Below, piece after piece: positions 1,494 to 4,220 of a stretch of DNA of 64,000 nucleotides (position 1 is its first letter; each line of letters opens with the position of its first letter). Both the position numbers and the translations under genes were made by a program. The stretch comes from Escherichia phage RB16: the sequence record NC_014467.1, one strand, 5' to 3'. The notes beneath the pieces were generated by a model. It saw only the letters and a program-made list of their open reading frames with translations. It did not search any database and was not told the DNA's origin.

Positions 1494-1761
1494 CGCATTC
1501 AGGGAGATAAGTTTCGCAGAACATGCACAGCGTGAAGAAAGTAGGCTGGCGAATCCCGATATTATCAGGTAAGTACATCCAGAACGTGTTAGCAAACACG
1601 ATGAACGTTTTCAGGTTTTCAACGGTTACGGTACTGACACCATCATAACCGGATTGAGCAATTGCGCGTTCCAGGGGAACGGGGTATTGTTCGCAGTAAT
1701 CGACGTAATGATCGCTTGTTACAAGCGCATTAGCCGCCTTTACGAGATCGATAATTTTCAT
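1459..1761 (-). CDS. hypothetical protein (100 aa)
   Basis: ORF track. Confidence 0.45.
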   Translation of the reverse strand: MKIIDLVKAANALVTSDHYVDYCEQYPVPLERAIAQSGYDGVSTVTVENLKTFIVFANTFWMYLPDNIGIRQPTFFTLCMFCETYLPECDDYEEHYGKSE

Positions 1762-2096
1762 GCTTTTACATATTCCACTTTAACAGGTTTGGCGATAAGG
1801 TGATCTTTGGTGTAACCTTGTCCGTCGCAAACATCACAAACGATTTTGAAATCTTCCATTTGGTCGACCCATCCAGAATCAGGCAATCCAGAAGGGTACG
1901 TGTTGAAGGTTTTAACACTGTATCCTTTCCCATCACACTTAGGGCATTTATACGGGTATTTCGATTTGATCGCACTATACAATTGACCCAGTGTGGTCGA
2001 ATGATCAAAGTGTATAACAAATGCTTCAATGTCAGCAATACGCAGTTCGTTTGGCTTGATCACAGTAAACACATTTGAAGGTATGTTTGAGCGCAT
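1758..2096 (-). CDS. zinc-ribbon protein (CPKCDGKGY ... CDVCDGQGY); start probably the internal Met MRSNIPS, ORF-track alternative start at 2228
   Basis: Two CxxC pairs; upstream part of the 156-aa track ORF is overlapped in another frame by a small hydrophobic ORF. Confidence 0.45.
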   Translation of the reverse strand: MRSNIPSNVFTVIKPNELRIADIEAFVIHFDHSTTLGQLYSAIKSKYPYKCPKCDGKGYSVKTFNTYPSGLPDSGWVDQMEDFKIVCDVCDGQGYTKDHLIAKPVKVEYVKA

Positions 2097-2106
2097 AATA
2101 TATTTC

Positions 2107-2247
2107 TCACTTAAAGAATTTTTTGATGAAAGAGAGGAACAATCCACCACCGAACATGATCCAGTATCCCGCGCCGTCACCGTGAAACAGGACGTAAACC
2201 GCGACACCATAACAAAAGATTTCTGCAATATTCAGTAAGTTTCTCAT
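2107..2247 (-). CDS. small hydrophobic protein (46 aa, MRNLLNIAEIFCYGVAVYVLFHGDGAGYWIMFGGGLFLSFIKKFFK)
   Basis: Hand-translated; GGAGGGAG Shine-Dalgarno about 7 nt upstream of ATG at 2247; single predicted membrane helix; below the ORF-track size cutoff. Confidence 0.35.
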   Translation of the reverse strand: MRNLLNIAEIFCYGVAVYVLFHGDGAGYWIMFGGGLFLSFIKKFFK

Positions 2248-2336
2248 AACTCCCTCCTTTGTCTACACCAGGTATTTTACCAGAAAATAGACTACTGTCA
2301 ACAACAAAGTTTTATCAACCCACTTATCACCAGTCA

Positions 2337-2477
2337 TCAGTAGTCACCCATAGGTTGAGAAGAAGCAACGCTCAATACGCGGAAAGAACATTTGTTCCAT
2401 TCACAATATGCTTTCGCACAGTGAACACTACCTTTCATCACAAACCCGTTTGAGAACACCAACCAGTAAAGTTTCAT
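2337..2477 (-). CDS. small ORF (46 aa, MKLYWLVFSNGFVMKGSVHCAKAYCEW...)
   Basis: Strong SD AAGGAGGT 5 nt before ATG at 2477; the longer track ORF 2337..2600 would span a terminator hairpin. Confidence 0.3.
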   Translation of the reverse strand: MKLYWLVFSNGFVMKGSVHCAKAYCEWNKCSFRVLSVASSQPMGDY

Positions 2478-2513
2478 GATTACCTCCTTTGTTTCGACAC
2501 CCCTAATATAACA

Positions 2514-2545
2514 AAAGCCCTTGCACGAATGCAAGGGCTTTTTCA
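2514..2545. terminator. bidirectional rho-independent terminator hairpin
   Basis: GCCCTTGCA-cgaa-TGCAAGGGC followed by T5 on plus strand and preceded by A-run (T-run on minus strand). Confidence 0.55.
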
Positions 2546-2712
2546 AATATTTTTCAACATGCGTAGTTGAGGTGGACAATCTGGAGAAGCAATCAAACAA
2601 TCCAGGCGAGACATAACGCGACGGTATCCGTCATACTCAAACTTGATTTTAGGCGGTACGTAGTTCACGTTAATTGCGTTGCGCGTGTTAATGTTCGCTT
2701 CGTACTCAGGGA

Positions 2713-3234
2713 TCACGAACTCTCGCCGCGATGTTCGATGTGCTCCGTGATATCCTCAACAGTCTTATCAAGGTCCAGAGATTCAGCATCTTCCTTGATA
2801 ATAGTCAAATCTACAGGCAGTGTCAACAGTCTTTTCACTCCGCTGATATCTTCGATACGAGAATCATACGCAAGGGTAACATGCGGTTTGTAGTTGTCAA
2901 AATCGTAAGTCGCTCCGGCATCCATCGCATCATTGAAACGGCTATGCAGATAATCAGACTCCAGAACACCGACGATAGTGTTACCGTATTTTGTGTCCCA
3001 CTTCTCTACGTCAACCAGTCGGGCAGGTTCAGAGATACCAGAGGCAGGGAACAAATCAACCGTCTTACGGCTATACACAATCGTTGTATGAAGTTTTTCA
3101 GCAGACACCGGATTCTCTACACCCAGAAGTTTTTGCACTTGTGCAAGCGCTTCACAGGAAGCCTGATCGAACTTCGCACACATATAGATCCCCGAATCAA
3201 CTACGGGTTTCGCAACTTCAATAAAACTTTTCAT
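2713..3234 (-). CDS. 57B: gp57B-like protein (assigned by position next to gp57A/gp1)
   Basis: Synteny with T4 57B-57A-1-3 order; size 173 aa; no motif recognised. Confidence 0.45.
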   Translation of the reverse strand: MKSFIEVAKPVVDSGIYMCAKFDQASCEALAQVQKLLGVENPVSAEKLHTTIVYSRKTVDLFPASGISEPARLVDVEKWDTKYGNTIVGVLESDYLHSRFNDAMDAGATYDFDNYKPHVTLAYDSRIEDISGVKRLLTLPVDLTIIKEDAESLDLDKTVEDITEHIEHRGESS

Positions 3235-3288: not shown

Positions 3289-3549
3289 TTAAGCATCTTT
3301 TGTTTCTGCGTCATCGGTTTCATCGGCTTCCGGCAGAAGTGCTTTGATAGCACCCAGCAGAGCATCAGGGGTTACACCCTGGGAACCGTCGATTTCCAGC
3401 AGACCGCAAATTTGACCGACGAGTTGGCGATGGCTTTGCAGTTCCTGATCTTTACCCTGAATGATTTCATTCAGATCGAATACACGGGCTTTCAGGATCA
3501 GTACATCGTTTTGCAGTTGCTGGGTTTGGTTTTGGGTTTGTTCAGTCAT
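3289..3549 (-). CDS. 57A: gp57A tail fibre assembly chaperone
   Basis: 86-aa acidic coiled-coil protein MTEQTQNQTQQLQNDVLILKARV..., same size class and character as T4 gp57A; directly upstream of gene 1. Confidence 0.7.
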   Translation of the reverse strand: MTEQTQNQTQQLQNDVLILKARVFDLNEIIQGKDQELQSHRQLVGQICGLLEIDGSQGVTPDALLGAIKALLPEADETDDAETKDA

Positions 3550-3560
3550 TGTTTACACTC

Positions 3561-4220
3561 TTAAAAGTTAAATACATTCAGTACGTTAGTTTTCAATTCA
3601 CCAAGCGTACCATTATTTAGGATGATAATATCAGTGGGTTGCGGTTTCAAGCCTTTCTCAGTTGAATGACTATCATCTTCCCCCGTATCACGTTCGATGA
3701 ATACAAATTTAGTCCCGAACTTGCTCAGGTATTTATATTCATGTTTTTGTCGAACGTCTGTAATGATAAAGTGATCTTTATCGGATTTCAAGATTTTCTT
3801 CAATACAATGTCAGTCCATACAGAATCGTTCTCATTGCAAACGATGTCAGTACCGAAAACCTGCATCAAACGGCGTATTGTCCAGGGATGTTTGTTTGTT
3901 TGGCAAATTTCATACGCGATGATATCAGCATTATTAAGCCAGTACCCGCGTTTAGTCAACGATTCAATGCCATTAGCAAACACCATACGCGCACATTCGT
4001 TAGACATCAACAGGGGTGCTTCCCGATCCCCTGAATAGAATGGGTTTGTTTTAGAGAGTTCTCGCAGATAGCGATTCCCTGATGCAGACATTCCATTTCT
4101 CAGGATACTCTTTATTTCATCAGCAAGCGCGATTGCTTCAACGTTCTGATAGTTATCCAAAACGAATTGAGAAACGGTGTCTTTACCTGTTCTCTTTTTT
4201 CCGCAAATACCATAAATCAT
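3561..4220 (-). CDS. 1: gp1 deoxynucleoside monophosphate kinase
   Basis: N-terminal GICGKKRTGKDT P-loop and RRLMQVFGTD motif as in T4 gp1; 219 aa. Confidence 0.85.
   Translation of the reverse strand: MIYGICGKKRTGKDTVSQFVLDNYQNVEAIALADEIKSILRNGMSASGNRYLRELSKTNPFYSGDREAPLLMSNECARMVFANGIESLTKRGYWLNNADIIAYEICQTNKHPWTIRRLMQVFGTDIVCNENDSVWTDIVLKKILKSDKDHFIITDVRQKHEYKYLSKFGTKFVFIERDTGEDDSHSTEKGLKPQPTDIIILNNGTLGELKTNVLNVFNF

What the first reader, a model, noticed from the sequence alone, without database searches (positions are those of the whole stretch)
1758..2247. Track ORF at 1758-2228 is probably two genes: a 46-aa membrane peptide and a zinc-ribbon protein
A strong SD (GGAGGGAG) precedes an ATG at 2247 that opens a 46-aa ORF encoding a hydrophobic peptide, in a different frame from the first ~45 codons of the 156-aa track ORF. 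The zinc-ribbon protein then probably starts at the internal Met near 2096. Small hydrophobic peptides in T4-like early regions are often unannotated.
Basis: seen in the sequence. Interest (0 to 1): 0.3.

Follow-up and report, generated by a model that had tools for sequence, protein, structure and literature searches.

The report
Two small phage genes, not one

Summary
All genes lie on the minus strand.

- **Peptide gene:** A sigma-70-type promoter (2301..2274) and a strong Shine-Dalgarno sequence precede an ATG at 2247. This opens a 46-codon gene (2247..2107).
- **Zinc-protein gene:** Ten bases after the peptide's TGA stop, an ATG at 2096 opens a 112-codon gene (2096..1758). It carries two CxxCxGxG motifs.
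- **The artefact:** The TTG at 2228 that gives the "156-aa ORF" has no ribosome-binding site.
- **Selection:** Between the window and RB43 the peptide frame has 16 synonymous and 1 non-synonymous changes. The extension frame has 1 and 16.
- **Relatives:** The extension frame is cut by stop codons in other relatives. The two genes sit in all three relative frames, and one contig has the peptide without the zinc protein.
- **Prior knowledge:** Both genes have their own PHROG families. They are annotated separately in 13 of 15 relatives inspected, for example as RB43ORF192c and RB43ORF191c. Two recent records carry the merged call.

The window is a Pseudotevenvirus (RB43 group), and the genes lie between Acb1/57B and nudE. 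The function of both proteins is unknown. The result is already known and of low interest.

The parts
2274..2301 (-). Sigma-70-type (T4-like early) promoter, TTGACA-16 nt-TAAAAT with TG before the -10 hexamer. It drives the transcription unit that begins with the 46-aa gene.
   Evidence: Consensus scan gives 11 of 12 matches. The hexamers and spacing are kept in Pseudotevenvirus, Slopekvirus, L015, L018 and L020. It matches the RB43 early-promoter description, -35 TTGACA and -10 TAAAGT (PMC3486835). No transcription start has been mapped.
2250..2259 (-). Shine-Dalgarno sequence AAGGAGGGAG, with 5 nt between GGAGG and the ATG at 2247.
   Evidence: Read in the sequence. Duplex with the anti-SD is -12.1 kcal/mol, within the top 0.8% of window positions. 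It is conserved in relatives.
2107..2247 (-). Gene for a 46-aa helical-hairpin membrane peptide (phrog_7448; orthologue of RB43ORF192c).
   Evidence: ORF seen. phrog_7448 hit at E 6.7e-34 covering 1-46 of 46. Purifying selection acts in this frame only. tblastn finds it in 173 phage records. There are 12 stand-alone representatives of 46-53 aa. AF2 predicts helices 2-21 and 25-42 with pLDDT 90.
2097..2106 (-). 10-nt intercistronic spacer GAAATATATT. The weak SD-like GUGAG overlaps the peptide's stop codon.
   Evidence: Sequence. The junction AAGTGAGAAATATAYTATG is conserved in Pseudotevenvirus and Slopekvirus. Anti-SD pairing is -5.4 kcal/mol.
1758..2096 (-). Gene for a 112-aa protein with an N-terminal helical part and a C-terminal single zinc knuckle made of two CxxCxGxG motifs (phrog_6730; orthologue of RB43ORF191c). 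Its TGA overlaps the ATG of the next gene at 1761 (ATGA).
2097..2228 (-). The 44-codon 'N-terminal extension' of the 156-aa mechanical ORF. It is not coding in that frame.
   Evidence: The TTG start has no SD, at -2.7 kcal/mol. The frame gives Sd 1 / Nd 16 against RB43. It is interrupted by stops in Slopekvirus, Phynn, L018, L020 and L021.
2263..2337 (-). Conserved 24-codon micro-ORF (MTGDKWVDKTLLLTVVYFLVKYLV), the orthologue of RB43ORF193c. Its ATG overlaps the stop of the upstream gene (TGATG), and the promoter above lies inside it.
   Evidence: It is annotated in RB43 and Phynn.
2337..2477 (-). Upstream 46-aa gene (phrog_7770; orthologue of RB43ORF194c), first gene after the terminator.
   Evidence: phrog_7770 hit at E 2.7e-36 covering 1-46 of 46. 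SD pairing is -12.9 kcal/mol. It is annotated in relatives.
2513..2542 (-). Intrinsic-terminator-like hairpin (13 pairs, followed by a T run) that closes the Acb1 unit upstream.
   Evidence: A terminator is annotated at the equivalent place in Miller and Matisse.

Best explanation
The region holds two separate, adjacent genes of one early transcription unit of a Pseudotevenvirus (RB43-group T4-like phage). It does not encode a single 156-aa protein.

**Inferred from consensus and conservation:** Host RNA polymerase starts at the TTGACA-16-TAAAAT promoter at 2301..2274.

**Shown by sequence and comparative evidence:**
- Ribosomes load on the strong SD and translate the 46-aa gene (2247..2107).
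- A second cistron starts at ATG 2096, ten bases after the TGA, and encodes a 112-aa protein ending at 1758.

**Inferred:**
- The second cistron has only a weak SD (GUGAG). It is probably translated largely by coupling or re-initiation. Relatives replace the 10-nt gap by a 2- or 6-nt gap, a 1-nt overlap or an ATGA overlap, which fits this. The zinc gene is itself ATGA-coupled to the next gene.
- The peptide is an inner-membrane helical hairpin. Helices 2-21 and 25-42 are joined by a conserved G-D/N-x turn. R2 and the KKxFK tail would sit on the cytoplasmic side. The second helix is the more reliably hydrophobic one across the family.
- The 112-aa protein binds one zinc ion through four invariant cysteines in two DnaJ-type CxxCxGxG knuckles, and acts as a protein-binding module.

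**Speculative:** What either protein does in infection is not known. My best guess for the peptide is an early envelope-acting or host-takeover factor. For the zinc protein, the best guess is the published suggestion that it interferes with the host DnaK/DnaJ chaperone system.
For: - **Gene structure:**
- **Frame-specific selection:** Window versus RB43 gives Sd 16 / Nd 1 in the peptide frame (omega about 0.01) and Sd 1 / Nd 16 in the extension frame. Variable sites by codon position are 20/11/32.
- **Stops in the extension frame:** Seen in Lemur, Matisse, KLB23, Phynn, L018, L020 and L021.
- **Relative frame:** 0, +1 or +2 in different relatives.
- **Uneven divergence:** The peptide stays about 98% identical where the zinc protein has dropped to about 69%.
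- **Start of the zinc protein:** Its sequence diverges immediately after a positionally fixed ATG.
- **Independence:** The peptide occurs without the zinc gene in L017.
- **Family profiles:** There are separate full-length PHROG profiles.
- **Existing annotation:** The genes are split in 13 of 15 annotated relatives inspected.
- **Homologue lengths:** Zinc-protein homologues are 105-114 aa. Peptide homologues are 46-53 aa.
- **Peptide structure:** AF2 predicts a hairpin with pLDDT 90. Hydropathy agrees. TMHMM predicted a helix at 10-30 of RB43ORF192c in Nolan et al. 2006, Additional file 2.
Against: - There is no direct expression evidence for this phage or any relative. Nothing was found from ribosome profiling, proteomics or 5'-end mapping.
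- In RB43-group phages the extension frame stays open for 45 codons. Two public records (Olmo, phi1_146015) and one JGI protein (P0011, 150 aa) annotate a merged 145-150-aa product.
- The first helix of the peptide carries an invariant Glu, and Lys or Arg in some members. A one-TM topology with an interfacial N-terminal helix is therefore as possible as a two-TM hairpin.
Confidence: 0.95

Rival explanations
1. A single protein of 145-156 aa is made from the long frame (start TTG 2228 or ATG 2210), as in the mechanical ORF call. On this reading the 46-aa ORF is an accidental overlapping frame.
For: The frame is open for 45 codons upstream of ATG 2096 in all RB43-group phages examined. It is annotated this way in Olmo and phi1_146015, and in JGI protein P0011.
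Against: Neither candidate start has an SD, at -2.7 and +0.2 kcal/mol. The extension frame evolves like non-coding sequence, with Sd 1 / Nd 16 against RB43. It is closed by stops in Slopekvirus, Phynn, L018, L020 and L021. phrog_6730 and 14 of 15 homologue clusters lack the extension. P0011's extension shows no similarity beyond the DNA shared with the peptide's C-terminus.
Confidence: 0.02
2. The two frames are joined by programmed +1 ribosomal frameshifting near the A-rich end of the peptide gene (ATC AAA AAA TTC TTT AAG TGA). This would give a membrane-anchored zinc protein in addition to the free peptide.
For: The zinc frame is +1 relative to the peptide frame in the window. An A-rich run lies just before the stop.
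Against: The relative frame is not conserved: 0 in Phynn with a stop between the genes, +2 in L018, L020 and L021, and +1 in the window group. The zinc gene always keeps its own ATG. The zinc gene can be absent. No stimulatory element was sought or seen.
Confidence: 0.01
3. The 46-codon frame is not translated into a functional product. It would be a leader or regulatory uORF, or a conserved RNA or DNA element, whose only role is to control expression of the zinc protein.
For: It sits directly upstream of a cistron with a weak SD, and the junction is conserved.
Against: Strong amino-acid-level purifying selection acts over the whole 46 codons, with Sd 16 / Nd 1. The hairpin pattern is kept at 35-60% identity in distant members. 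The peptide is retained where the zinc gene is lost (L017). It is more conserved than the protein it would regulate.
Confidence: 0.02

Closest known systems
RB43ORF192c (AAX78714.1) / phrog_7448, annotated 46-aa hypothetical proteins of Pseudotevenvirus and Slopekvirus
   Same: The length is the same and the sequence is 97.8% identical to RB43. The position is the same, after the 24-aa ORF and 10 nt before the zinc-protein gene. The PHROG profile is matched over its full length. A TM helix was predicted for the RB43 protein in 2006, and KLB23's record notes a transmembrane domain.
   Different: Nothing of substance differs. The window peptide is identical to those of Miller, Lw1 and CfP1.
RB43ORF191c (AAX78713.1, UniProt Q56BK7) / phrog_6730
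   Same: It is the orthologous position and family, at 63% identity to RB43 over residues 10-112. The same invariant CPKCxGxG...CxxCxGxG core is present. Perrody et al. 2012 (PMC3486835) flagged it as similar to the DnaJ zinc-binding domain.
   Different: The window protein is 112 aa against 106 aa, with a divergent N-terminus (MRSNIPSN versus MSKFNLV).
DnaJ central cysteine-rich domain (Pfam PF00684) and its single-domain relatives Anti-TRAP and BSD2
   Different: There are two motifs (one zinc site) rather than four (two sites). The motifs are 32 residues apart, with a family-specific invariant YPxGLPDSGW loop. There is an unrelated N-terminal helical part and no J domain. Scores are below every curated cut-off.
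Small early membrane proteins of T4, such as Imm (from my own knowledge, not tested here)
   Same: Both are short, membrane-embedded, expressed from early promoters, and encoded in variable regions of small ORFs.
   Different: No sequence relation was detected. tblastn with the peptide found only Pseudotevenvirus, Slopekvirus and Phynn, and no Tequatrovirus.

Membership tests
phrog_7448 (RB43ORF192c-like 46-aa peptide) | Full-length match to the family profile | tested here: met
   E 6.7e-34, residues 1-46 on profile positions 1-46 of 46.
phrog_7448 (RB43ORF192c-like 46-aa peptide) | Two hydrophobic helices joined by a Gly-rich turn, with a basic C-terminal tail | tested here: met
   Hydropathy. 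AF2 helices at 2-21 and 25-42, pLDDT 90. The pattern is kept in 16 members. Actual membrane insertion cannot be tested here.
phrog_7448 (RB43ORF192c-like 46-aa peptide) | Coding frame under purifying selection | tested here: met
   Sd 16 / Nd 1 against RB43. The other two frames have an excess of non-synonymous changes.
phrog_6730 (RB43ORF191c-like zinc protein) | Full-length profile match starting at the internal Met, not at the long-ORF start | tested here: met
   E 4.3e-53, residues 8-112 on profile positions 2-106 of 106. Homologues are 105-114 aa.
phrog_6730 (RB43ORF191c-like zinc protein) | Four invariant cysteines in two CxxCxGxG motifs | tested here: met
   C51, C54, G58, C87, C90, G92 and G94 are invariant in 20 sequences.
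DnaJ central cysteine-rich domain (PF00684) | Score at or above Pfam's gathering threshold | tested here: not met
   21.7 bits against a cut-off of 32.7.
DnaJ central cysteine-rich domain (PF00684) | Four CxxCxGxG repeats forming two zinc centres | tested here: not met
   Only two repeats are present, giving one possible centre.
DnaJ central cysteine-rich domain (PF00684) | Fold similarity to solved CR domains | tested here: inconclusive
DnaJ central cysteine-rich domain (PF00684) | Zinc binding | not testable with these tools
   Needs metal analysis of the purified protein.
Anti-TRAP (PF15777 / NF058604 RtpA) | Score at or above the curated cut-off | tested here: not met
   16.5 bits against 32. 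19.6 bits against 65.
T4-like early (sigma-70-type) promoter | -35 TTGACA and -10 TAnAnT hexamers at 16-18 nt, upstream of an early-region ORF, conserved in relatives | tested here: met
   11 of 12 matches. Conserved in relatives. Agrees with the RB43 early consensus quoted in PMC3486835.
T4-like early (sigma-70-type) promoter | Mapped transcription start and early timing | not testable with these tools
   Needs 5'-end mapping or RNA-seq of infected cells.
Programmed-frameshift fusion of two ORFs | Conserved relative frame and slippery site across relatives | tested here: not met
   The relative frame is 0, +1 or +2 in different relatives. The junctions are unrelated.

The most novel reading that the evidence does not exclude
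The membrane hairpin peptide and the DnaJ-type zinc-knuckle protein may work as a pair. Together with the 24-aa and 46-aa micro-proteins just upstream, they would form a conserved early cassette next to the anti-CBASS gene Acb1. The cassette would either recruit or block the host DnaK/DnaJ chaperone system at the membrane (an extension of the hypothesis in PMC3486835), or counteract a membrane-acting host defence.
Probability: 0.1. Interest if true: 0.5.

Novelty: already known. Interest (0 to 1): 0.1.

Why it matters
This is mainly a matter of annotation hygiene. A longest-ORF rule merges a real 46-aa membrane peptide into a false N-terminal extension of its neighbour. The same error is present in at least two recent GenBank phage records and one metagenome protein. 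The corrected model leaves intact a small, strongly conserved early gene cassette of unknown function (46 aa, 24 aa, 46 aa, 112 aa) beside Acb1 in RB43- and KP15-group phages, several of which were isolated on Klebsiella, Enterobacter and Cronobacter hosts. Nothing here would surprise a T4 specialist.

Tried and rejected
- **Sequence search of the zinc protein against PDB chains:** Only chance C2H2-finger matches, E > 0.2.
- **NCBIfam:** No family above cut-off for any of the four small proteins.
- **Aeromonas phage Ahp1:** It has a zinc-protein homologue and a 44-aa hydrophobic ORF two genes upstream. A profile comparison with the peptide family gave probability 0.5%, so I do not count it as a homologue.
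- **Frameshift fusion:** Considered and rejected because the relative frame varies.
- **Synonymous/non-synonymous counts for the 24-aa micro-ORF:** Not decisive, because the ORF is short and overlaps the promoter.
- **Literature search for Slopekvirus plus DnaJ:** Found nothing.
- **Two long hits in the representative search** (P0020, 1327 aa with 22 stretches; P0030, 546 aa): I set these aside as probable repetitive hydrophobic matches without examining them.

Full report
**What is there.** All genes in this part of the window run on the minus strand. Reading 5' to 3' on that strand:

- A terminator-like hairpin lies at 2542..2513.
- A 46-codon gene follows at 2477..2337, with a strong SD.
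- A 24-codon ORF lies at 2337..2263. Its ATG overlaps the preceding stop as TGATG.
- Inside that ORF is a sigma-70-type promoter match, TTGACA-16-TAAAAT, at 2301..2274 (11 of 12, with TG before the -10 hexamer).
- The SD AAAGGAGGGAG comes next, then ATG 2247 opening a 46-codon ORF that ends with TGA at 2109..2107.
- Ten bases later, ATG 2096 opens a frame that runs to the TGA at 1760..1758. That stop overlaps the ATG (1761) of the next gene.
- The "156-aa track ORF" is simply this last frame extended upstream to the first TTG after a stop (2228). That is how a mechanical ORF list is built.

**Is it more than chance?** Predicted pairing of the 20 nt upstream of each candidate start with the 3' end of 16S rRNA gave these values:

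| Candidate start | Pairing (kcal/mol) |
|---|---|
| ATG 2247 (peptide) | -12.1 |
| TTG 2228 (long ORF) | -2.7 |
| ATG 2210 (in-frame, long ORF) | +0.2 |
| ATG 2096 (zinc protein) | -5.4 |

Only 0.8% of 1,730 sampled positions of the window reach -9 or better. The long ORF therefore has no credible initiation site, while the 46-codon ORF has one of the best in the window.

**Where the window comes from.** Megablast against phage genomes gives Escherichia phage Lw1 (95%) as the closest match. Citrobacter phages Xman, IME-CF2, CfP1 and Miller follow at 93%. Then come RB43-group (Pseudotevenvirus) phages of Cronobacter, Enterobacter and Klebsiella at 85-88%, and Slopekvirus (KP15 group) at lower identity.

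The neighbourhood in transcription order is as follows:

1. gp1 dNMP kinase (3561-4220)
2. An 86-aa gene (3289-3549); its positional counterparts in L018 and L021 carry a weak PF17594 (GP57) hit
3. Acb1/57B (2713-3234; PF23474, 163 bits)
4. The terminator
5. The small-gene cassette
6. A 100-aa gene (phrog_7464)
7. Further downstream, after other small ORFs, NUDIX nudE (560-973)

**The comparative test.** I collected the orthologous region from 14 phage records and 8 metagenomic contigs.

1. *Substitution pattern.* Over the 46 codons, window versus RB43 shows 16 synonymous and 1 non-synonymous differences in the peptide frame (omega about 0.01). The same differences score as 1 synonymous and 16 non-synonymous in the frame of the 156-aa ORF. 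Other pairs behave the same way. Variable sites fall 20/11/32 on codon positions 1/2/3 of the peptide frame.
2. *Openness of the extension frame.* It is open for 45 codons in RB43-group phages. It is open for only 30, 21 and 16 codons in Lemur, Matisse and KLB23, 11 in L018, 3 in L020 and L021, and 2 in Phynn.
3. *Relative frame.* The two genes are in frame +1 in the window group and L015, with a 10-nt gap. They are in frame 0 in Phynn, with a 6-nt gap and a stop between them. They are in frame +2 in L018 (ATGA overlap), L020 (2-nt gap) and L021 (1-nt overlap).
4. *Independence.* In L017 the peptide gene is ATGA-coupled directly to the phrog_7464 homologue, and the zinc gene is absent.
5. *Uneven divergence.* The peptide is about 98% identical in phages whose zinc protein is only about 69% identical. 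The zinc proteins diverge immediately after a positionally fixed ATG (MRSN, MSKF, MAKP, MATR, MENK).

Together they contradict the single-ORF model, and points 2 to 4 also exclude a conserved frameshift fusion.

**It is already known.**
- PHROGs holds both proteins as separate families. phrog_7448 is a 46-position profile matched end to end at E 6.7e-34. phrog_6730 is a 106-position profile matched by residues 8-112 at E 4.3e-53.
- The original RB43 record (AY967407) annotates RB43ORF191c (321 bp), ORF192c (141 bp), ORF193c (75 bp) and ORF194c (141 bp) exactly as found here.
- Nolan et al. 2006 list a TMHMM helix at residues 10-30 of RB43ORF192c in their Additional file 2 (PMC1524935).
- Perrody et al. 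2012 name ORF191c (106 aa) as one of two RB43 ORFans resembling the DnaJ zinc-binding domain. They suggest these may act with the phage J-domain protein Rki on the host DnaK machine (PMC3486835).
- Of 15 annotated relatives I inspected, 13 split the genes. Two carry a merged 438-bp CDS: Olmo and phi1_146015. One JGI protein (P0011, 150 aa) is likewise merged.

**The 46-aa peptide.**
- It has two hydrophobic segments (about 4-21 and 26-41) around a conserved H/N-G-D-G turn, with R2 at one end and KKFFK at the other. GRAVY is 0.85 and the 19-residue Kyte-Doolittle maximum is 1.66.
- AlphaFold2 with a 16-sequence alignment gives helices 2-21 and 25-42 at mean pLDDT 90.
- An exhaustive profile search of 1.8 billion representatives found 12 stand-alone relatives of 46-53 aa, all matched from residue 1.
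- In the 16-sequence family alignment M1, Y13, G35 and K42 are invariant, and E9, S39 and F45 nearly so.
- Some members have K, R or E in the first helix. The second helix is therefore the safer transmembrane segment, and the first may be interfacial.
- No relative was found outside Pseudotevenvirus, Slopekvirus, Phynn and similar metagenomic contigs.

**The 112-aa protein.**
- The AF2 model (pLDDT 87) has two N-terminal helices (20-30, 36-46) and a C-terminal beta-hairpin part.
- C51-P-K-C54-x-G-x-G58 and C87-x-x-C90-x-G92-x-G94 are invariant. So is much of the intervening YPxGLPDSGW loop.
- Pfam DnaJ_CXXCXGXG scores 21.7 bits against a cut-off of 32.7. Anti-TRAP is also sub-threshold.
- I therefore describe it as working like a single DnaJ-type zinc knuckle, but not as a member of PF00684. 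It has two motifs rather than four, and it fails the curated threshold.

**Mechanism.** The two-cistron structure is shown by sequence and comparative evidence. Several steps are inferred:
- The promoter rests on consensus, conservation, and agreement with the published RB43 early consensus.
- Translational coupling of the zinc gene rests on its weak SD and on the short gaps or overlaps in all relatives.
- Membrane insertion and zinc binding are inferred from sequence and models.

Biological roles remain speculative.

**Verdict.** The finding corrects a mechanical ORF call rather than revealing anything new. Novelty is "already known" and interest is low.

Noticed in passing
window 2263-2337 (-): A 24-codon micro-ORF (MTGDKWVDKTLLLTVVYFLVKYLV) has its ATG overlapping the upstream stop (TGATG), and the early promoter of the next gene lies inside it. 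It is open and conserved at protein level in every relative examined that holds this region (L017 and the truncated L022 gave no match). That includes divergent contigs (65-92% identity where neighbouring proteins are 36-57%) and Phynn. In L021 the promoter hexamers are not obviously kept, but the peptide is. It is annotated only in RB43 (ORF193c) and Phynn. Synonymous/non-synonymous counts were not decisive.
   Followed up: partly
window 2337-2600 (-): This is a second over-extended mechanical ORF. The listed 87-aa TTG-start ORF runs through the terminator hairpin (2513-2542). The real gene is the 46-aa one from ATG 2477, with SD pairing of -12.9 kcal/mol and an end-to-end phrog_7770 match, as annotated in relatives.
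   Followed up: yes
window 2713-3234 (-): The 173-aa protein is an Acb1 (anti-CBASS, T4 57B) homologue, PF23474 at 163 bits. It is shorter than the 207-208-aa Acb1 genes of Miller, RB43, L015 and L018. Those phages also carry an extra 172-183-aa gene (RB43ORF195c) between Acb1 and the terminator. In the window and in Lw1 only a 57-aa ORF (2543-2716) lies there, which suggests a deletion in this lineage.
   Followed up: partly
L012 (Klebsiella phage CPRSB, OM971649.1) 701-1357: In this record the peptide is 45 aa with a shifted stop. The zinc-protein gene and the next gene are each split into two short CDS. This looks like frameshift-type sequencing errors in the record.
   Followed up: no
L015 4476-5000, L016 3693-3940 and L018 4773-5162: In several divergent relatives a GmrSD_N-domain gene (PF03235) and a DUF7415 gene lie just downstream of nudE. 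I did not check whether the window has them.
   Followed up: no
L007 (Klebsiella phage Matisse) 713-841: Matisse annotates the peptide from an internal Met (42 aa), although the conserved SD and ATG at 701 are present.
   Followed up: no
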